In this document: in pieces, positions 3,182 to 26,555 of the stretch
Numbering within the stretch: position 1 is the stretch's first letter
How the letters are laid out: each line of letters begins with the position of its first letter
From: Dehalococcoidia bacterium
GTDB taxonomy: Bacteria > Chloroflexota > Dehalococcoidia > Lucifugimonadales > Australimonadaceae
NCBI GenBank assembly: GCA_965249325.1
Contig: CBDFLP010000019.1
Coordinates: forward strand, 24,950 to 88,949
Direction of reading: 5' to 3'
DNA length: 64,000 nucleotides
Notes under the pieces: model-generated
The model's database searches: none
What the model saw: the letters and a program-made list of their open reading frames with translations, nothing else
What the model was told of the DNA's origin: nothing
Translations under genes and position numbers: made by a program

Positions 3182-3424
3182 ATGGCGACAACCAAAGCGT
3201 TCGTGCTGATCGAGACGGCGGTGGGGAAGACCAAGGACGTGGTGAGCGCGCTCCACAACGTGTCCGGCGTGACATCGGTGGATGTCGTCACCGGCCCCTA
3301 TGACGTCATCTGCATCGTTCAGGCGGAAGACCTGAGCTCGGTGGGCGACACCGTCACGGGCAGCGTCCACACCATCGGCGGGATCGTGCGCACCGTGACC
3401 TGCCTAGCGGTCGGCAGCAACTAA
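3182..3424 (+). CDS. Lrp/AsnC ligand-binding (RAM) domain-only protein
   Basis: 80 aa, KAFVLIETAVGKTKDVVSALHNVSGVTSVDVVTGPYDVICIV pattern. GGGAGA ribosome site upstream. Confidence 0.65.
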   Translation: MATTKAFVLIETAVGKTKDVVSALHNVSGVTSVDVVTGPYDVICIVQAEDLSSVGDTVTGSVHTIGGIVRTVTCLAVGSN

Positions 3425-3443
3425 CGAGCGCCCTAGCATCATT

Positions 3444-3484
3444 TGACTGACGGATGCACAGGGGTGACTGACGGATGACAGGGG
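3444..3484 (+). repeat. Tandem 21/20-nt direct repeat TGACTGACGGATG(C)ACAGGGG x2
   Basis: Copy 1 at 3444..3464, copy 2 at 3465..3484. Read directly from the sequence. Confidence 0.85.
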
Positions 3485-3526
3485 TGGCCGGCAGGGACGT
3501 TCCAACCGGCGCCCCTGTTTTCGTTT
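3479..3526 (+). terminator. Intrinsic terminator after the RAM-domain gene
   Basis: GC-rich stem CAGGGGTGGCCGG / CCGGCGCCCCTG followed by TTTTCGTTT. Confidence 0.6.
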
Positions 3527-3537
3527 AGGGGGCCGAG

Positions 3538-3885
3538 GTGACGGAGCAGGACTGCATATTCTGCAAGCTCGGTCGGGGCGACATCCCCGCCGACAAGCTG
3601 TTCGACGATGGCGCGGTGTTCGCGATACGCGACATCGAACCGGAGGCGCCGACGCACGTTCTCGTCATCCCGCACGCGCATGCCGGGGCGCTTGCCGAGT
3701 CGCCCGAAGAGACGGTCTCCGCTGCTGCGCATTGCCTGACGGTCGCGCCGGGGATAGCGCGGGAACTGGGGCTTGGCGAGTCCGGCTACCGGCTCGTGGC
3801 GAATCAAGGGCCGGACTCTGGGCAGGAGGTCCCGCACTTCCACCTCCACATCCTCGGCGGGCGACGCCTCGGCGCCATGGGCTAG
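3538..3885 (+). CDS. HIT (histidine triad) family protein
   Basis: 115 aa with GTG start. Contains CIFCKL.., HVLVIPHAH and the triad HFHLHILGG. Confidence 0.85.
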   Translation: MTEQDCIFCKLGRGDIPADKLFDDGAVFAIRDIEPEAPTHVLVIPHAHAGALAESPEETVSAAAHCLTVAPGIARELGLGESGYRLVANQGPDSGQEVPHFHLHILGGRRLGAMG

Positions 3886-3887
3886 GC

Positions 3888-4469
3888 GTGGCCTTCGAGC
3901 TGCCGCCATCCCTCGACGCCCGACTCGACGCGCTGCCCGGCGGCCTTCGCTCGCACGTCGAGCGCGTTCGCGGAATCGCCCGCCAGCTTGCGGCGGTTCA
4001 CGGCGTCGACATTGCCATCGCCGACCTGACGGCGGCCGCCCACGACGTTGCGCGGCATATTCCGGGCCGCAGGCTGATCGAGGAGGCGGAGCGTCTCGGG
4101 ACCGGCGTGAGCGACGTGGAACGAGCGGCTCCCATCCTGCTGCACGGGCCCGTCGGGGCCGGATGGCTCCGCGAGGACGGCTCCATCGTGGACCCGGAGG
4201 CGCTCGAAGGAGTGCACTGGCACACCACAGCCCACCCGGACCTAGCGCCGGTAGGGAAGGTCGTCTTCATCGCCGACAAGCTCGACCCGCATAAGGCGAA
4301 GGCGTACCCCTTCCAGCCGGCGGTGCGGGAGGCCGCGTTCCGCGATCTGCAGGAGGGCGTGCTCGCCTTCCTTGACGGCACGATCAAGGCCCACGTGGAC
4401 CGTCGCGAGCTCGTCCACCCCATGAGCGCCGAGACGCGGAACCGGCTGCTCATGGCGCTGAATTGCTAG
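3888..4469 (+). CDS. HD-domain phosphohydrolase (YqeK-like)
   Basis: In-frame GTG 3888 lies 2 nt after the HIT stop; the listed ORF start 3732 overlaps HIT. Motifs AAAHDVARH, HWHTTAHP, FIADKLDP. Confidence 0.6.
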   Translation: MAFELPPSLDARLDALPGGLRSHVERVRGIARQLAAVHGVDIAIADLTAAAHDVARHIPGRRLIEEAERLGTGVSDVERAAPILLHGPVGAGWLREDGSIVDPEALEGVHWHTTAHPDLAPVGKVVFIADKLDPHKAKAYPFQPAVREAAFRDLQEGVLAFLDGTIKAHVDRRELVHPMSAETRNRLLMALNC

Positions 4470-4515
4470 CCCGCGAGCAATCCGCCAAAATCACGCACAT
4501 TTGTTCTGATAACTG

Positions 4516-4545
4516 TTGACACTGCCCGAACACGCGTTCTAATAT
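4516..4545 (+). promoter_or_regulatory. Sigma-70-type promoter (TTGACA-18 nt-TAATAT)
   Basis: -35 at 4516..4521, -10 at 4540..4545. An AT-rich island in high-GC DNA, 35 nt upstream of GTG 4580. Confidence 0.6.
4527..4540. promoter_or_regulatory. Candidate LexA (SOS) box 1, CGAACACGCGTTCT
   Basis: Matches the Gram-positive-type consensus CGAACRNRYGTTYC at 13/14 positions. Lies between -35 and -10. Confidence 0.55.
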
Positions 4546-4556
4546 GCCGCTAGTTT

Positions 4557-4570
4557 AGAACGCATGTACG
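4557..4570. promoter_or_regulatory. Candidate LexA box 2 (imperfect), AGAACGCATGTACG
   Basis: GAAC-N4-GTAC, one core mismatch. Lies between the -10 and the GGGAG ribosome site. Confidence 0.35.
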
Positions 4571-4579
4571 GGAGCCGCA

Positions 4580-5902
4580 GTGCTAACTCCAACGCCATAC
4601 CAACGTGAAATCGCAGCCGCTGTAGCTGGTGACGTGCTGCACGAACGAGCCTCCGTCTTTACGGTCGAAATGCCCTTGGGGGCCGGCGTCCGCGAACTGG
4701 CGTCCCAGCTCGAGATGCTCGTGATGAGCGTCAACGTGAATGCCGGAGGGTCGCTGCTCCGGGTGGCGCCTACCGAGGCGGCCTTGGTGAAGGACAGGCT
4801 CGTCGCCCACCTCCGCGAGGGCGCACTGAACGGGCTATGGTCGTCGACGGCGGAGAACGTGCGACTGGGCCGCGCCCGCGTCCGCTACGTGACCCACGAG
4901 CAGCTGCCGACGGTCCGGGGCTCCTTCAGCCTCATCCAGGTGGTCGACTCACACCTGCTCAACCACGCCGGACTCGAACGAATCCGGCTTCTCGCCGCGG
5001 CGTCCGGCGCAACCGCCGTCTTCTACGGGCGTCCCTGGAGTGGGGAGACCCCCTTCGAGCAGCTCAAGGTCCGAAACAAGCAGTCTCAAGCCTCCGACGG
5101 CGGGGCTCTGCACTTCCGGGCCCCCCTGGACCGCGTCATAGCGGAGCTCCCCGACTACGCCGACCGCGCCGCCAAAGCCCGCCAGACCCTCGGCGCCGAG
5201 CACCCGGAGTACACGACGGCCTATGAGCTGCGTCCCGTGACGGCGGGCCGGGCATTCCCCGTGGAACAGCTCCACAGTCTGTTCAGCGGCGGACGAGCGC
5301 GCAGGGCCGTCACGGGAGGCGAGGTCGTCGCATCTATCGTCCTGACGCGGCTGCCGGAGCCCGGCGCGGCCTTGCTCGCTCCAGCCTCGGCGACTGCCGT
5401 TGTCACGGTGGCGGAACGCGCGCCGGACGGCCTGCGAGTCATCGATCACCGATGGCTCGAAGCCGTCGACGCGGCATCGCTCGCCCGGGCCATCGCGCGC
5501 TTCACCTCGAAGACGTGGGCGTGCGCGCGGGTGACAGTACGGCCGCAGACGGGACGGACAGCGGGCCAAGTACGGCGCCTCCTGGATAGCGAGCTTGGCG
5601 CGCGCCGTGTGATCTGGCTCGACGACCCGCCGGTCGCGCGGAGCACGGAGGTCTCGGACCTCATCGCAGCCGTCCTGACGGGCCGGCTCAGTCTCTACGC
5701 CATGGACGGCTCGCACGAGTACCGGATGCTCCGCCACGAGGTTGAGAGCGCGTCGCTGCGCCTCGGCGATGGCCGCGGCCTTGACTTGGCGATGGAGGGT
5801 CCGAGGGAAGGGTTCCTCGAAGGTCTCTTAGTCCTTGCTCACTACGGCGCGGAGCGCGTACAGGAGCGCAACGGAACGCTCCCTGCCGCGCTCGCGTCGT
5901 GA
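4580..5902 (+). CDS. Hypothetical protein with terminase-large-subunit-like motif order and degenerate Walker motifs
   Basis: 440 aa with GTG start preceded by GGGAG. Contains TPYQREI, P-loop-like EMPLGAGVRE, LLRVAPTEAA and Walker-B-like LIQVVDSHLL; the C-terminal half is alpha/beta-like. Similarity judged by eye only. Confidence 0.35.
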   Translation: MLTPTPYQREIAAAVAGDVLHERASVFTVEMPLGAGVRELASQLEMLVMSVNVNAGGSLLRVAPTEAALVKDRLVAHLREGALNGLWSSTAENVRLGRARVRYVTHEQLPTVRGSFSLIQVVDSHLLNHAGLERIRLLAAASGATAVFYGRPWSGETPFEQLKVRNKQSQASDGGALHFRAPLDRVIAELPDYADRAAKARQTLGAEHPEYTTAYELRPVTAGRAFPVEQLHSLFSGGRARRAVTGGEVVASIVLTRLPEPGAALLAPASATAVVTVAERAPDGLRVIDHRWLEAVDAASLARAIARFTSKTWACARVTVRPQTGRTAGQVRRLLDSELGARRVIWLDDPPVARSTEVSDLIAAVLTGRLSLYAMDGSHEYRMLRHEVESASLRLGDGRGLDLAMEGPREGFLEGLLVLAHYGAERVQERNGTLPAALAS

Positions 5903-5974
5903 GGCGTGTTGCCTGGATTGCCTACATAACGGACGAATAGCCGACAACTAACGGAACCATTGAAGGAGGGAGAG

Positions 5975-6295
5975 ATGAGCAGTTACGCGAAGTCCCATCG
6001 ACGGCGGCGGGAGCCCGTTCTGGACGGGCCGCCAGAACAGCAGCACTACTCCGATACCGGGTGCGAGGTATCGATGTCGTGTCTGACGTGCCCATTGCCT
6101 CAATGCAAGTTCGACGACCCTACCTGGTACAAGACCTACAGGCGTCAAGGGCGAGACCTGGAGTTCCTCCTGGCCCACGTACAGGAGGGGCTCAGCGTCT
6201 TCGAGATAGCGGGGCGTTTCCGCGTGAGCCCGCGCACGGTGCACCGTGCGATCCAGCGCATCGAGGGCACCCCCCTGGCCGCGCAGGTCGCTTGA
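5975..6295 (+). CDS. Cys4 + helix-turn-helix DNA-binding protein
   Basis: ATG 5975 follows GAAGGAGGGAGAG. Contains CEVSMSCLTCPLPQC (C-x5-C-x2-C-x4-C) and then LSVFEIAGRFRVSPRTVHRAIQR, an HTH of sigma-70 region 4 or resolvase type. Confidence 0.55.
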   Translation: MSSYAKSHRRRREPVLDGPPEQQHYSDTGCEVSMSCLTCPLPQCKFDDPTWYKTYRRQGRDLEFLLAHVQEGLSVFEIAGRFRVSPRTVHRAIQRIEGTPLAAQVA

Positions 6296-6341
6296 CCGCT
6301 ACGCGCAATAGAACGCCCCATCGTCAGGCAACACAGAACCG

Positions 6342-6365
6342 GAAGCCGGCCCACGGGCCGGCTTC
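6342..6365. terminator. Hairpin between convergent genes (bidirectional terminator candidate)
   Basis: GAAGCCGGCC-CACG-GGCCGGCTTC, a perfect 10-bp stem followed by TCTCT. Confidence 0.5.
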
Positions 6366-6427
6366 TCTCTGCTCTAAGCAGTGCTCCTCCCCATCTGCGG
6401 GGGAAGGCGTCGAAGGGGATAGGAAAC

Positions 6428-6856
6428 CTAGTTGGCGCGCTCCAGAATCACCACGGGAATCTCGCGCTCCGTGCGCGCCTGGTATTCATCGTAGGGCGGG
6501 TAGACCGAGGCCATGTGCCGCCAGAGCTCGGGTTTCTCGTCGGCATCGGCGGTGCGCGCCGTCGCCTTGAAACCGTCGGCCTTGACCTGCACGCCGACGG
6601 AAGGGTTCGCCAAGAGGTTGCGGTACCACTGCGGGTGCTCGGGCGCACCGCCCCGCGAGGCCACGATCAGGTAGCGGCCCTCGTGCTCTCCGTAGATCAA
6701 CGGCGTCGTAATCTCGTTGCCCGACTTTCTGCCGATCGTCGTCAGGAGGAGCGTGGGATAGCCGCGCCACATGTGGCCGTCTTCACCGTTGCTCTGCCGA
6801 TAGCTTTCGATGTGATCGAGCACCCACTGAGGCTTGCCGCTATTGGACGTTTTCAT
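6428..6856 (-). CDS. Deazaflavin (F420)-dependent nitroreductase-family oxidoreductase (DDN-like)
   Basis: 142 aa. LLLTTIGRKSGNEITTPLIY..YLIVASRGGAPEHPQWYRNL is the family signature. Confidence 0.75.
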   Translation of the reverse strand: MKTSNSGKPQWVLDHIESYRQSNGEDGHMWRGYPTLLLTTIGRKSGNEITTPLIYGEHEGRYLIVASRGGAPEHPQWYRNLLANPSVGVQVKADGFKATARTADADEKPELWRHMASVYPPYDEYQARTEREIPVVILERAN

Positions 6857-6931
6857 GGCCCCACCCTCCTGACCTGGCCGCCGACATCAGCGGGCGCGGA
6901 CACCCATGCCGACGACGGTTTATAGGAAATA

Positions 6932-7008
6932 TGGTCGGGGTGATTGGATTTGAACCAACGGCCCCCTGCACCCCATGCAGGTGCGCTTCCGGACTGCGCC
7001 ACACCCCG
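6932..7008 (-). tRNA. tRNA-Pro (anticodon GGG)
   Basis: Reverse complement reads CGGGGTGTGGCGCAGTCCGG..CCTGC-ATGGGGT-GCAGG..GGTTCAAATCC..CACCCCGACCA. Cloverleaf folded by hand; CCA is encoded. Confidence 0.85.
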
Positions 7009-7170
7009 ACCTAGGCTAACGAGCGTAGCACAGCCCCGAGGCGACCGTCCAATGAAACGCGTCGCCGTTCCCGGGCAGACGAGAACCTAGCAGCCCCACG
7101 AATGGATTGGGGGTATAATGGCCATGACGGGCTCCAGAAGCCCGTTTACTTGTGGAAGGGAGCAAGCGCT

Positions 7171-8272
7171 ATGGATGAGCTGCGCCAACGCCTGGCAGAG
7201 CTGGGCGAGCACGTCTCCGACATCATGGCGCGTCTTTGACCTCCCCGACAAGGCAGCAGAGGCCGAGCGGCTGGAGATAGCCGCCGCCGAACCCGATTTC
7301 TGGAACGACTCCGATAACGCGCAAGCAGCGATGAAGCGGCTCGCGCGGCTTCGCGCGACCGTCGACGGCTGGCGCGACTTCGAGGAGCACGTCGCGTCCA
7401 CCGCCGAGATGCTGGATCTGGCAATCGAGTCCCAAGACGCCGGAATGTCCGAAGAGCTGGCAATCGAGGCGGACAAGCTGTTCGAGGAATCGGAACAGCG
7501 CGAGTTCGACCTCGTGCTCGCCGGGGAATACGACGACCGCGGCGCCATCCTCGCTATCCACGCTGGCGCCGGAGGCACGGACTCGCAGGACTGGACCGAG
7601 ATGCTCATGCGCATGTACACCCGTTGGGCAGACCTCAGCGGGTACAAGGCCGAGGTGCTCGACCTCTCCACAGGGGAAGAGGCAGGGGTGAAGAGCGTGA
7701 CCCTGGAGATATCCGGGGCCAACGCTTACGGGTACGCCAAGGCTGAGCGCGGGGTACACCGACTCGTCCGGCTCTCGCCGTACGACGGCGCCCACGCACG
7801 GCACACGTCATTCGCCCTCGTCGAGGTCCTGCCCGAAGCCGAGGGCGACGTCGACCTACGCATCGACCCCGACGACATCGAGATGGAGGTCTTCAAGGCG
7901 AGTGGCGCCGGCGGCCAGCACGTTCAGAAGAACTCAACCGCGGTGCGCATCCGCCATCTTCCCTCGGGGCTCGTCGTCGCCTGCCAGAATGAGCGCTCGC
8001 AGCTACAGAACCGCGAGGTCGCGATGAAGATTCTGCGCGCACGTCTGATGGCAATCGAGGTGCGAAGGCGCGCCGAGGAACGCGCCGCCCTCAAGGGCGA
8101 CCACATCTCGGCGGGCTGGGGCAACCAGGTGAGGAGCTACGTCCTCCACCCATACAAGCTCGTGAAGGACCACCGCACCGGGTTCGAGTCCACCAACCCC
8201 GACTTGGTGCTCGACGGAGAGTTGGACGGCCTCATGCGGGCGTACCTCCTATGGAGCGTCGACGGAGCCTAG
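7171..8272 (+). CDS. prfB: Peptide chain release factor 2, with programmed +1 frameshift: join(7171..7236,7238..8272)
   Basis: Frame 0 reads MDELRQRLAELGEHVSDIMARL, ending CGT CTT TGA C (7231..7240). Frame +1 continues DLPDKAAEAERL... and contains GGQHVQK and RLSPYD..RHTSF. Confidence 0.9.
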
Positions 8273-20892: not shown

Positions 20893-20969
20893 TGGTGGGC
20901 CACCCTGGAATCGAACCAGGGACCTCAGTCTTATCAGGACTGCGCTCTAACCGACTGAGCTAGTGGCCC
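20893..20969 (-). tRNA. tRNA-Ile (anticodon GAU), intact
   Basis: Reverse complement reads GGGCCACTAGCTCAGTCGGTTAGAGCGCAGTCCTGATAAGACTGAGGTCCCTGGTTCGATTCCAGGGTGGCCCACCA. Confidence 0.9.
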
Positions 20970-24977: not shown

Positions 24978-26484
<1,507 letters not shown>

Positions 26485-26555
26485 TTTTTGGGTCTCAAGA
26501 GACCCATTTTGTCAGATTGACAAAGGGTTGCATGCCCCTAAGGGGCACGCAGGCG

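What the first reader, a model, noticed from the sequence alone, without database searches (positions are those of the whole stretch)
4501..6295. LexA-box promoter driving a degenerate terminase-like gene and a Cys4-HTH gene
An AT-rich near-consensus promoter (TTGACA 4516..4521, 18-nt spacer, TAATAT 4540..4545) stands out in high-GC DNA. Between the -35 and -10 lies CGAACACGCGTTCT (4527..4540), a full GAAC-N4-GTTC core of the Gram-positive-type SOS box, which Dehalococcoides LexA is also reported to use. A near-box, AGAACGCATGTACG (4557..4570), sits just before the ribosome site of GTG 4580. The 440-aa product has terminase-large-subunit-like motif order, but the P-loop Lys/Thr (EMPLGAGVRE) and Walker-B acid (VVDSH) are replaced. 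It is followed by a 106-aa protein with C-x5-C-x2-C-x4-C plus an HTH. No other phage genes flank the pair. I do not know of a described SOS function that pairs a damage-inducible, catalytically altered packaging-ATPase homolog with its own DNA-binding partner.
Basis: partly seen in the sequence, partly recalled or inferred. Interest (0 to 1): 0.7.

Follow-up and report, generated by a model that had tools for sequence, protein, structure and literature searches.

The report
SOS-controlled dead phage terminase operon
A lineage of Dehalococcoidia bacteria keeps a two-gene viral remnant at one fixed chromosomal spot, an enzymatically dead DNA-packaging protein plus a small DNA-binding protein, under a promoter with up to three (here two clear plus one degenerate) operator sites of the DNA-damage (SOS) repressor LexA.

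Summary
The TTGACA/TAATAT promoter, the GAAC-N4-GTTC box between the hexamers and the near-box before the ribosome site are at the stated coordinates. A third, degenerate box lies upstream of the -35.

This architecture is conserved upstream of all 33 close orthologues from other Dehalococcoidia genomes. In 1.17 Mb of fetched DNA, 41 of 51 GAAC-N4-GTTC matches sit in these promoters. The consensus, TAGAAC-N4-GTTCTA, is also the single strong site in the promoters of Chloroflexota lexA genes.

The 440-aa protein has a full terminase-large-subunit fold. It has lost the Walker A lysine, the Walker B glutamate and the nuclease acidic residues, yet it is under purifying selection (dN/dS 0.12-0.31) at a syntenic housekeeping locus.

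The Cys4-HTH partner always follows it. Portal, capsid and small-terminase genes are absent. In Dehalococcoidales, the catalytically intact homologues belong to a vertically inherited phage-like head and packaging module, whose two operons carry the same kind of box.

Best reading: a LexA-repressed, exapted "pseudo-terminase" plus regulator operon. What the proteins do after induction is unknown.

The parts
4494..4507 (+). Box 1: degenerate LexA-type operator CGCACATTTGTTCT, upstream of the -35. Its centre lies 33 bp from the centre of box 2.
   Evidence: sequence. (it aligns with GAACATGCGTTCT/AAACATGCGTTCT in the orthologues). (7.7 bits for the same 16-mer in L001; up to 22 bits at this position in other genomes).
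4516..4521 (+). -35 hexamer TTGACA.
   Evidence: It is invariant as TGTTGACA in the orthologous promoters.
4527..4540 (+). Box 2: CGAACACGCGTTCT, a full GAAC-N4-GTTC LexA operator between the -35 and -10, overlapping the -10 by one base.
   Evidence: Conserved in 31 of 34 promoters as a strict match and in the rest with one mismatch. It scores 19.7 bits and has the same 14-mer core as the box of the lexA locus L164.
4540..4545 (+). -10 hexamer TAATAT.
   Evidence: TAnTAT is conserved.
4557..4570 (+). Box 3: AGAACGCATGTACG, a near-consensus operator in the 5' leader, 30 bp from box 2. It abuts the ribosome site.
   Evidence: (12.2 bits). (a box at this position in most orthologues, as GTACATACGTTC or GAACxxxxGTAC).
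4580..5902 (+). Gene 1: TerL* (440 aa), a terminase-large-subunit homologue with inactivated ATPase and nuclease centres. Walker A is PLGAGVRE (V37 replaces the Lys). Walker B is VVDS (S124 replaces the Glu). Motif III is YGR. The nuclease Asp positions are V254 and R321, and the HDD motif is reduced to REG. The tail ...PAALAS is conserved.
   Evidence: (fold). (motif table). (dN/dS 0.12-0.31). (tail).
5903..5974 (+). Conserved spacer with the ribosome site AAGGAGG (5963-5969).
5975..6295 (+). Gene 2: a 106-aa Cys4 (C30, C36, C39, C44) plus sigma-70-region-4-like HTH protein.
   Evidence: (family alignment; all four Cys and the LPEQ..Y.D.GCE motif are invariant). (always linked to the TerL family). 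(only the HTH part folds confidently; no significant fold match).
6341..6366 (+). An 11-bp GC-rich hairpin, GAAGCCGGCCC-ACGG-GGGCCGGCTTC, followed by TCTCTCT. It is the probable operon terminator.
   Evidence: MFE structure, z = -2.8..

Best explanation
This is a LexA-repressed two-gene operon of phage origin that has become a fixed chromosomal component of a Dehalococcoidia lineage. The nearest genomes are labelled Dehalococcoidia and SAR202 MAGs.

Control. Three LexA operators lie about 30-33 bp apart, so on one face of the helix. They bracket and overlap a near-consensus sigma-70 promoter. In undamaged cells LexA dimers occlude the -35/-10 region and the leader. After DNA damage, RecA-stimulated LexA self-cleavage frees the promoter and both genes are transcribed as far as the hairpin at about 6341-6366. 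The presence and conservation of the sites are shown. Binding and induction are inferred.

Gene 1. It encodes a terminase large subunit that keeps its two-domain fold but has lost the residues needed for ATP hydrolysis and DNA cleavage. It can therefore act only as a non-enzymatic binding partner, that is, a pseudoenzyme. This is shown at the level of sequence and predicted structure.

Gene 2. It encodes a small metal- or Fe-S-type Cys4 module fused to a sigma-region-4-like HTH. In the intact relatives of Dehalococcoidales it is the first gene of the portal-scaffold-capsid operon, and in some viral contigs it sits directly upstream of TerL. I infer that it is the element's own DNA-binding regulator, like a late activator. 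In this lineage I infer that it serves as a second-tier, SOS-induced DNA-binding factor, with TerL* as its partner.

The cellular output is not known. It could be gene regulation, interference with phage packaging, or handling of DNA ends.
For: Operator.
- 41 of 51 GAAC-N4-GTTC matches in 1.17 Mb lie in these promoters.
- The box1 / -35 / box2 / -10 / box3 layout is conserved while the N4 bases vary.
- No other hit of at least 11 bits occurs in 31 of the 33 flanking loci.

Identity of the binder.
- A matrix built only from these sites scores 25-28 bits on the sole strong site in the promoters of three Chloroflexota lexA genes picked by protein similarity.
- 76 metagenomic lexA genes carry AGAAC-N4-GTTCT at the expected distance, although these were selected by that pattern.
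- GAAC-N4-GTTC is the published LexA motif of Firmicutes and Actinobacteria, with a variant reported in Chloroflexi (PMC4951493). That paper cites Fernandez de Henestrosa 2002 on Dehalococcoides ethenogenes. I recall the content of that work from my own knowledge, because the paper is not held.

TerL origin and inactivation.

Selection and vertical inheritance.
- dN/dS is 0.12-0.31.
- Synteny with the HD gene, the F420H2 reductase and the release factor holds across genomes whose TerL* is only 54-69% identical.

Partner.
- The Cys4-HTH gene is directly downstream in all G1/G2 loci.
- A standalone Cys4-HTH gene in 4.1-4.5 Mb genomes has the same box/-10/box promoter.

Ancestry.
- In Dehalococcoidales a box TAGAACATATGTGCTA precedes both the TerS-TerL operon and the Cys4-HTH-portal-scaffold-capsid operon.
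- Relatives in viral contigs are all canonical; none is of the dead type.
Against: - The lexA, recA and uvrA promoters of this very genome could not be reached, so the link from the motif to LexA is shown for the phylum and not for this organism.
- No expression or binding data exist.
- The Cys4-HTH protein could also recognise the same palindrome.
- The Dehalococcoidales boxes carry a conserved GTGC half-site that departs from the canonical GTTC. This could mean tuned LexA affinity or a different binder.
- TerL* keeps the YQ adenine motif, a G-x-G remnant of the P-loop, the Walker B Asp and D376/E410, so nucleotide binding or a non-canonical activity cannot be excluded.
- One orthologue (L006) is frameshifted.
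- Whether portal and capsid genes survive elsewhere in these genomes is untested beyond the 64 kb window and 33 loci of up to about 17 kb.
- The function assigned to the two proteins is inference only.
Confidence: 0.65

Rival explanations
1. The palindromes are operators of the operon's own Cys4-HTH protein (negative autoregulation, perhaps sensitive to redox state or metal), and not of LexA.
For: Every occurrence of the operator controls a transcript that encodes, or belongs to the same element as, the Cys4-HTH protein. The Dehalococcoidales sites have a conserved non-canonical GTGC half-site. The protein carries a DNA-binding HTH.
Against: The same 16-bp consensus is the single strong site in lexA promoters that have no Cys4-HTH gene nearby. 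It equals the experimentally defined LexA motif of this phylum and of Gram-positive bacteria. A small sigma-4-like HTH is a poor fit for a symmetric dyad repressor site.
Confidence: 0.1
2. The pair is a functionless, decaying prophage remnant, and the boxes are leftovers of the phage's regulation.
For: The catalytic residues are lost. TerS, portal and capsid genes are gone. A tRNA-Pro gene lies 640 nt away. One orthologue is frameshifted.
Against: Full-length ORFs survive in 32 of 33 genomes down to 40% identity. dN/dS is 0.12-0.31. Promoter, operators and ribosome sites are conserved. Synteny is fixed. New lineage-specific conserved features exist, such as the ...A[LI]AS tail. No att repeats were found.
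Confidence: 0.05
3. TerL* is still the packaging enzyme of a gene-transfer-agent-like particle or prophage whose other genes lie elsewhere in the genome.
For: Gene transfer agents have dispersed loci (own knowledge of RcGTA). In Dehalococcoidales the TerS-TerL operon and the head operon are already separated by 1.4 to more than 8 kb.
Against: The Walker A Lys, the Walker B Glu, the motif III Thr and the nuclease Asp residues are all replaced. TerS is absent between the promoter and the gene. No head gene occurs in 64 kb or in 33 loci.
Confidence: 0.08
4. The pair is an SOS-timed anti-phage or anti-prophage device. The dead TerL, with its DNA-binding partner, poisons or misdirects the packaging motor of related phages that are induced by the same DNA damage.
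For: A catalytically dead subunit of an oligomeric motor is a classic dominant-negative design (inference). Expression would coincide with prophage induction. The viral relatives of this TerL family are intact.
Against: PADLOC defence models give no hit. No defence genes lie nearby. Standalone Cys4-HTH genes with the same promoter suggest that the regulator, and not TerL*, is the core of the module.
Confidence: 0.12

Closest known systems
Phage terminase large subunits (Sf6 gp2, D6E TerL, HK97 TerL, T4 gp17)
   Same: The two-domain fold (ASCE ATPase plus RNase-H-like nuclease) aligns over the full length (Foldseek E 1e-14 to 1e-12, TM up to 0.68). The YQ adenine motif and the order of motifs are kept.
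   Different: The Walker A Lys is Val, the Walker B Glu is Ser or Ala, the motif III Thr is Arg, and the nuclease Asp residues are Val, Arg and Gly. There is no TerS, portal or capsid. The gene is chromosomal, syntenic and under LexA-type control.
The phage-like module of Dehalococcoidales found here (TerS-TerL, then Cys4-HTH-portal-scaffold-HK97-type capsid)
   Same: It contains the same TerL family (27-32% identity) and the same Cys4-HTH family (about 40-45%). It has the same promoter logic, with a TAGAAC-N4-GT(T/G)CTA box between or after the promoter hexamers.
   Different: Its TerL is catalytically canonical, and TerS and head genes are present. It has two separate boxed operons. In the window's lineage only TerL* and the HTH gene remain, fused into one operon with up to three boxes.
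Host-LexA-controlled temperate phage GIL01 of Bacillus thuringiensis (own knowledge; not checked in a paper here)
   Same: A phage-derived element has no repressor of its own. Its promoters carry host LexA boxes, and a small element-encoded DNA-binding factor assists.
   Different: GIL01 is a complete, infectious tectivirus. Here there is no virion gene set, and the retained packaging protein is dead.
LexA-repressed sigN (zpdN) of plasmid pBS32 in Bacillus subtilis (PMC6751061, seen)
   Same: A LexA-controlled small sigma-type factor of a prophage-like element is switched on by DNA damage.
   Different: SigN is a full sigma factor that drives cell death genes on a plasmid. The protein here has only a sigma-4-like HTH plus a Cys4 module, and it is paired with a pseudo-terminase.
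Gene transfer agents (RcGTA with its activator GafA; PMC6363796, abstract seen)
   Same: Both show vertical inheritance of phage head and packaging genes, host-integrated regulation and a dedicated small activator.
   Different: Gene transfer agents keep active TerL and a full particle gene set. RcGTA is not directly boxed by LexA at its structural promoter (own knowledge).
LexA regulon of Dehalococcoides and Gram-positive bacteria (GAAC-N4-GTTC; Fernandez de Henestrosa 2002, cited in PMC4951493)
   Same: The operator core is identical, and the position overlaps the promoter.
   Different: To my knowledge and in the searches, the known members are repair, mutagenesis and division genes, and not a terminase homologue.

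Membership tests
Terminase large subunit (TerL) | Two-domain fold: N-terminal ASCE ATPase plus C-terminal RNase-H-like nuclease | tested here: met
   AF2 model with pLDDT 86 and pTM 0.83. Foldseek gives full-length hits to Sf6, D6E, HK97 and T4 TerL. Sequence profiles alone do not reach Pfam or PDB TerL. The link by sequence runs through P0056 and the G3 homologues (PF17289 and phrog TerL hits).
Terminase large subunit (TerL) | Walker A P-loop with catalytic Lys | tested here: not met
   RQGGKNE in the canonical relatives, against PLGAGVRE here (V37).
Terminase large subunit (TerL) | Walker B hhhhDE with catalytic Glu, and the motif III coupling Thr/Ser | tested here: not met
   LLEIDE(S/A)Q against LIQVVDSH (D123 kept, Glu replaced by S124). 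YGTTW against YGRPW.
Terminase large subunit (TerL) | Nuclease acidic metal ligands | tested here: not met
   GIDLAGE against SIVLTRL (Asp replaced by V254). VVVDA against VTVRP (Asp replaced by R321). GHDDF against PREGF.
Terminase large subunit (TerL) | Encoded with TerS, portal and capsid genes | tested here: not met
   None in the 64 kb window or in the 33 orthologous loci.
LexA (SOS) regulon | Operator that matches the clade's LexA motif, placed so as to block the promoter | tested here: met
   Boxes at 4527-4540 (between the -35 and -10) and 4557-4570 (leader). The motif equals that in Chloroflexota lexA promoters and the published GAAC-N4-GTTC.
LexA (SOS) regulon | Operator conserved upstream of orthologues in other species | tested here: met
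   34 of 34 promoters.
LexA (SOS) regulon | Same motif upstream of lexA and other core SOS genes in the same genome | tested here: inconclusive
   There is no lexA or recA in the window or the loci. The motif was shown for lexA genes of other Chloroflexota.
LexA (SOS) regulon | LexA binding in vitro and induction by DNA damage | not testable with these tools
   This needs EMSA or footprinting, and RNA-seq after mitomycin C or UV.
Gene transfer agent or functional prophage | Complete head (and tail) gene set with an active packaging enzyme | tested here: not met
   It is met only in the Dehalococcoidales relatives, and only for the head genes.
Terminase small subunit (for the Cys4-HTH protein) | Profile match to TerS families, and position upstream of TerL | tested here: inconclusive
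   Only a weak hit to phrog_7067 (E 0.0076) for the G3 homologue. G3 has a separate TerS (phrog_1889/509, E 1e-7). However, in the viral contigs L175 and L179 the Cys4-HTH gene lies just upstream of TerL.
WhiB-like Fe-S proteins (for the Cys4-HTH protein) | C-Xn-C-X2-C-X5-C motif and a Pfam Whib match | tested here: not met
   The spacing is C-x5-C-x2-C-x4-C and no Whib hit appears at E up to 0.1. The spacing of the WhiB motif is from my own knowledge.
Known anti-phage defence systems | Match to PADLOC models | tested here: not met
   No hit for TerL*. The partner gives only generic HTH noise.

The most novel reading that the evidence does not exclude
The class Dehalococcoidia carries an ancient, vertically inherited phage-derived particle module (like a gene transfer agent) that is directly controlled by LexA. 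In the SAR202-type lineage of this window it has been stripped down to a new kind of SOS effector. This effector consists of a catalytically dead terminase kept as a non-enzymatic DNA- or protein-binding subunit, together with a Cys4 (metal or Fe-S) sigma-4-like DNA-binding protein that acts as a second-tier, possibly redox-gated, SOS regulator or as a device that interferes with phage packaging.
Probability: 0.3. Interest if true: 0.8.

Novelty: new variant of a known kind. Interest (0 to 1): 0.68.

Why it matters
It adds an unexpected member to the SOS regulon of an abundant but almost uncultivated bacterial class. It is also a clean example of a viral molecular motor kept for tens of species-level divergences after losing both of its enzymatic activities.

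The comparative series offers a natural dissection of how a phage packaging gene is domesticated. It runs from the intact TerS-TerL and head operons in Dehalococcoidales, through intermediate P-loops, to the dead TerL* plus regulator, and finally to the regulator alone.

It also points to a conserved, LexA-boxed phage-like particle module in Dehalococcoidales, the group that includes the organohalide respirers. That module may be an undescribed gene transfer agent, and it links DNA damage to gene exchange or lysis in these organisms.

The predictions can be tested directly with a 90-bp probe, purified LexA and two small recombinant proteins.

Tried and rejected
Searches and scans that gave nothing useful:
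- Pfam, NCBIfam and PHROGs gave nothing on the 440-aa protein.
- An HMM search of the family profile against PDB sequences gave only noise.
- tblastn with E. coli and B. subtilis LexA and RecA against the window and 80 loci gave no hit.
- The Dehalococcoides LexA paper (PMC135389) is not held.
- Literature searches for a Dehalococcoidia gene transfer agent, a LexA-regulated terminase or a described Dehalococcoides prophage module found nothing relevant.
- Fold searches with the Cys4-HTH model found only generic sigma-4, DeoR or LuxR HTHs above E 0.2, and the Cys4 part is poorly modelled.
- PADLOC gave no defence hit.
- A search for att-like repeats around tRNA-Pro found none.

Leads rejected:
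- The 571-aa 'fusion' protein P0006 is not a Rosetta stone. It comes from a frameshift in the last 50 or so codons.
- The two copies on one 2.85 Mb contig are not paralogues. They sit at the two ends of the contig with identical neighbours, which indicates an assembly overlap.
- The ten GAAC-N4-GTTC matches outside the family's G1/G2 promoters say nothing about an SOS regulon. Six lie inside long ORFs. The other four lie in intergenic DNA upstream of the TerS-TerL or Cys4-HTH operons of the canonical relatives, and none precedes a recognisable DNA-repair gene.

Not achieved:
- The attempt to fingerprint LexA proteins from the very genomes that carry the pair, using chromosome length in the hit table, failed. 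None of the 120 listed hits came from those chromosomes.
Full report
**1. Observation**

- TTGACA is at 4516-4521 and TAATAT at 4540-4545, 18 nt apart.
- CGAACACGCGTTCT is at 4527-4540, between the two hexamers.
- AGAACGCATGTACG is at 4557-4570.
- GGGAG is at 4570-4574, and the GTG start is at 4580.

The consensus scan finds this as the only sigma-70-like promoter in 3400-7300. GC drops to 0.57 here. The ORFs are 4580-5902 (440 aa) and 5975-6295 (106 aa). The second has Cys at positions 30, 36, 39 and 44 and a Pfam HTH_23 match at residues 66-97.

On its own, one GAAC-N4-GTTC in 64 kb is what chance gives: 0.83 are expected. The case therefore had to be made by comparison with other genomes.

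**2. The protein family and its three grades**

The 440-aa protein has no Pfam, NCBIfam or PHROG match. It does have 56 homologues in the protein collection, nearly all 431-460 aa long, from Chloroflexi/Dehalococcoidia MAGs. It also has 226 relatives in the species-level genome collection. Eighty of these were fetched as loci L001-L080.

The relatives fall into three grades.
- **G1** comprises the window, L001-L024, L028 and L030, at 50-97% identity. The P-loop reads PLGAG(V)xE.
- **G2** comprises seven loci with intermediate P-loops: ARGAGARE, AKGAGLRE and ARRGGVRE.
- **G3** comprises 47 loci, mostly labelled Dehalococcoidales or Dehalococcoidaceae, at 27-32% identity. The P-loop is the canonical ARQGGKNE.

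**3. Terminase fold with dead active sites**

The AlphaFold model built on the family alignment is confident (pLDDT 86, pTM 0.83). Foldseek aligns it end to end with the large terminases of Sf6, D6E, HK97, T4 and T7 (E 1e-14 to 1e-9, TM up to 0.68).

The table compares the canonical G3 relatives with the window protein, column by column.

| Motif | G3 (canonical) | Window (G1) | Change |
|---|---|---|---|
| Walker A | RQGGKNE | PLGAGVRE | Lys replaced by V37 |
| Walker B | LLEIDE(S/A)Q | LIQVVDSH | D123 kept, Glu replaced by S124 |
| Motif III | YGTTW | YGRPW | Thr replaced by Arg |
| Nuclease, site 1 | GIDLAGE | SIVLTRL | Asp replaced by V254 |
| Nuclease, site 2 | VVVDA | VTVRP | Asp replaced by R321 |
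| Nuclease, site 3 | GHDDF | PREGF | HDD reduced to REG |

The one error concerns the Walker B Asp, which is retained.

**4. Maintained, not decaying**

Pairwise dN/dS within G1 is 0.12-0.31. The gene sits at one chromosomal position. The order is a luciferase-like gene, an HD-type gene, TerL*, the HTH gene, an F420H2 quinone reductase on the opposite strand, and a release factor. This order holds across genomes whose TerL* is only 54-69% identical, and in part of G2.

No portal, scaffold, capsid or TerS relative is detectable in the 64 kb window or in the 33 G1/G2 loci. IMG/VR viral contigs contain only catalytically canonical relatives of this family, at 32% identity or less. None is of the dead type.

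**5. The operator**

In 1.17 Mb of window plus loci there are 51 strict GAAC-N4-GTTC matches. Of these, 41 lie within 200 nt upstream of G1/G2 genes.
- Of the other ten, six lie inside long ORFs. Four lie upstream of the TerS-TerL or Cys4-HTH operons of the canonical relatives, and none precedes a recognisable repair gene.
- No strict match lies within 200 nt upstream of a G3 gene.

The aligned promoters show one architecture.
- Box 1 reads (G/A)AACATGCGTTCT.
- It is followed by TGTTGACA.
- Box 2 reads (T/C)AGAAC-N4-GTTCTA and runs into the TAnTAT -10 hexamer.
- Box 3 reads GTACATACGTTC or GAACxxxxGTAC.
- The Shine-Dalgarno sequence and the start codon follow.

Box centres are 30-33 bp apart. 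The arms are invariant while the N4 spacer drifts, which is the signature of a protein-binding site. In the window, box 1 is degenerate (CGCACATTTGTTCT, 4494-4507). All 34 promoters have at least one matrix hit of 10.6 bits or more, and 32 have one of 17 bits or more. Almost nothing else in the flanking loci scores.

**6. Is the binder LexA?**

I therefore scanned metagenomes for AGAAC-N4-GTTCT followed at the right distance by the LexA N-terminal motif GYPP(S/T)xREI. This returned 76 lexA genes.

A profile of one of their families retrieved LexA proteins that sources name as Chloroflexota. I then fetched three of these (P0158, P0132, P0219), chosen by protein similarity and contig length only.
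- Each has exactly one strong site in about 8.6 kb.
- The sites read TAGAACGTGCGTTCTA, TAGAACGAGTGTTCTA and CAGAACACGCGTTCTA.
- Each lies immediately after the -10 of its own TTGACA-type promoter.
- Each scores 25-28 bits with the matrix built solely from the TerL* promoters.

The last site shares the 14-nt core GAACACGCGTTCTA with the window's box 2.

GAAC-N4-GTTC is the established LexA motif of Firmicutes and Actinobacteria, with a variant reported for Chloroflexi (PMC4951493). The underlying Dehalococcoides ethenogenes study could not be read here. I recall from my own knowledge that it showed LexA binding to GAAC-N4-GTTC in the lexA and uvrA promoters.

I conclude that these boxes are LexA operators, with about 0.85 confidence. 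The remaining doubt is that the lexA promoter of this particular genome was not seen.

**7. The partner**

The Cys4-HTH gene follows TerL* in every G1/G2 locus. Its family alignment shows an invariant LPEQ..Y.D.GCE....C..C.LP.CK.DDP.WY block and a conserved HTH. The apparent fusion in L006 is a frameshift.

Only the HTH part models confidently. It resembles sigma-70 region 4 and DeoR- or LuxR-type HTHs, without significant matches. Profile hits point weakly to phage Mu Mor and to a PHROG of late transcriptional activators. The Cys4 module matches no Pfam family.

In 4.1-4.5 Mb genomes a standalone homologue, without TerL, has the same box/-10/box promoter. The constant unit is therefore the LexA-boxed promoter together with the Cys4-HTH gene.

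**8. Where it came from**

In G3, the canonical TerL is preceded by a small terminase gene (phrog_1889/509). The Cys4-HTH homologue lies 1.4-8 kb downstream on the same strand. It is directly followed by an SPP1-type portal, a coiled-coil scaffold and an HK97-type capsid gene.

A box TAGAACATATGTGCTA sits just upstream of TerS, and a second one sits just upstream of the Cys4-HTH gene.

The module is at a fixed position next to a CT398-like gene. It is more conserved (TerL 70-80%, capsid about 80%) than that neighbour (42-58%). This argues for vertical inheritance of a domesticated head and packaging module.

Viral contigs L175 and L179 place a Cys4-HTH gene immediately upstream of a canonical TerL. 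L175 also carries a tyrosine integrase.

The window's operon is therefore the reduced end of a series. The series runs from the full boxed module, through G2 intermediates, to TerL* plus HTH, and then to HTH alone.

**9. Mechanism proposed**

Shown:
- operators placed to block a strong promoter;
- the operon structure, ending in an 11-bp GC hairpin at 6341-6366;
- a TerL-fold protein without catalytic residues;
- a conserved DNA-binding partner;
- purifying selection.

Inferred:
- LexA represses the promoter, and DNA damage derepresses it.
- TerL* acts non-enzymatically.
- The Cys4-HTH protein is the element's regulator, like a late activator, now serving as a second-tier SOS factor.

The downstream cellular effect is open. 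Rival readings were weighed and judged less likely: autoregulation by the HTH protein, junk remnant, still-active packaging enzyme, and packaging-interference defence.

**10. Novelty and score**

LexA control of phage-derived genes, domesticated phage modules and pseudoenzymes are each known. A catalytically dead large terminase conserved under a triple LexA operator, together with a novel Cys4-HTH protein, is not described in anything I could find or recall. I file it as a new variant of a known kind and score its interest at 0.68.

The conserved, LexA-boxed head module of Dehalococcoidales, noticed on the way, may deserve its own study.

Noticed in passing
Loci L036-L080 (for example L070: 7574-9362 and 12286-15534): Dehalococcoidales genomes carry a TerS-TerL operon and a Cys4-HTH-portal-scaffold-HK97-capsid operon at a fixed chromosomal position. 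Each operon is preceded by TAGAACATATGTGCTA. TerL (70-80% identity) and the capsid protein (about 80%) are more conserved than the flanking host gene (42-58%). This looks like a vertically inherited, LexA-box-controlled module like a gene transfer agent, and I found no description of it.
   Followed up: partly
L082/L083 9943-10330: In 4.1-4.5 Mb genomes a standalone Cys4-HTH homologue, with no terminase gene, has the same promoter: CAGAACGTGCGTTCTATAAT, then TAGAACAAACGTTTCG, then the ATG.
   Followed up: partly
window 5885-5902 and 6275-6295: TerL* of all G1/G2 genomes ends in a near-invariant [A/P]xA[L/I/M]AS tail that the canonical relatives lack. The partner ends in an Ala-rich PxAAxxA tail. 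These may be protease degrons, but this is unexplained.
   Followed up: no
window 5903-5974: The spacer between the two genes is conserved across G1 (GTGTTGCCTGGA ... GAGAACGCATGGATAGCCGTTATGAG ... AGGAGG). In relatives it contains an AGAAC half-site. This may be a relic of the box that precedes the HTH gene in Dehalococcoidales.
   Followed up: partly
window 6932-7008 (-): A tRNA-Pro(GGG) gene lies 640 nt downstream of the pair, which would be a classic phage integration target. No att-like repeat was found in 3400-7300.
   Followed up: yes
window 24981-26485 (-) and 20893-20969 (-): A complete 16S rRNA gene is present, with no 23S rRNA anywhere in the 64 kb window. The nearest tRNA-Ile(GAT) is 4 kb away. 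The rRNA genes appear to be unlinked.
   Followed up: no
L006 8001-9716 (protein P0006): The 571-aa 'TerL-HTH fusion' in one genome results from a frameshift in the last 50 or so codons of TerL*. This is either a sequencing error or a pseudogene, and not a true domain fusion.
   Followed up: yes
L225 and L227 (ena ERZ21830300 ctg717501l, positions 25-38 kb and 2836-2849 kb): The locus appears at both ends of one 2.85 Mb contig, with identical neighbours and 434-aa and 436-aa variants. This is most likely an end overlap of a circular assembly that mixes strains, and not paralogy.
   Followed up: yes
L081 5364-9683: A high-GC metagenomic contig shows another reduced form. A box AAGAACATAAGTTCTA is followed by four small genes (at least one membrane-like), a canonical TerL and an SPP1-type portal. 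Unrelated polysaccharide genes come next.
   Followed up: partly
L175 560-2536 and 5446-6309; L179 about 6950-7918: In these IMG/VR contigs a Cys4-HTH gene sits directly upstream of a canonical TerL, which is the usual TerS or late-activator position. L175 also encodes a tyrosine integrase. No LexA-type box of 13 bits or more was found there.
   Followed up: partly
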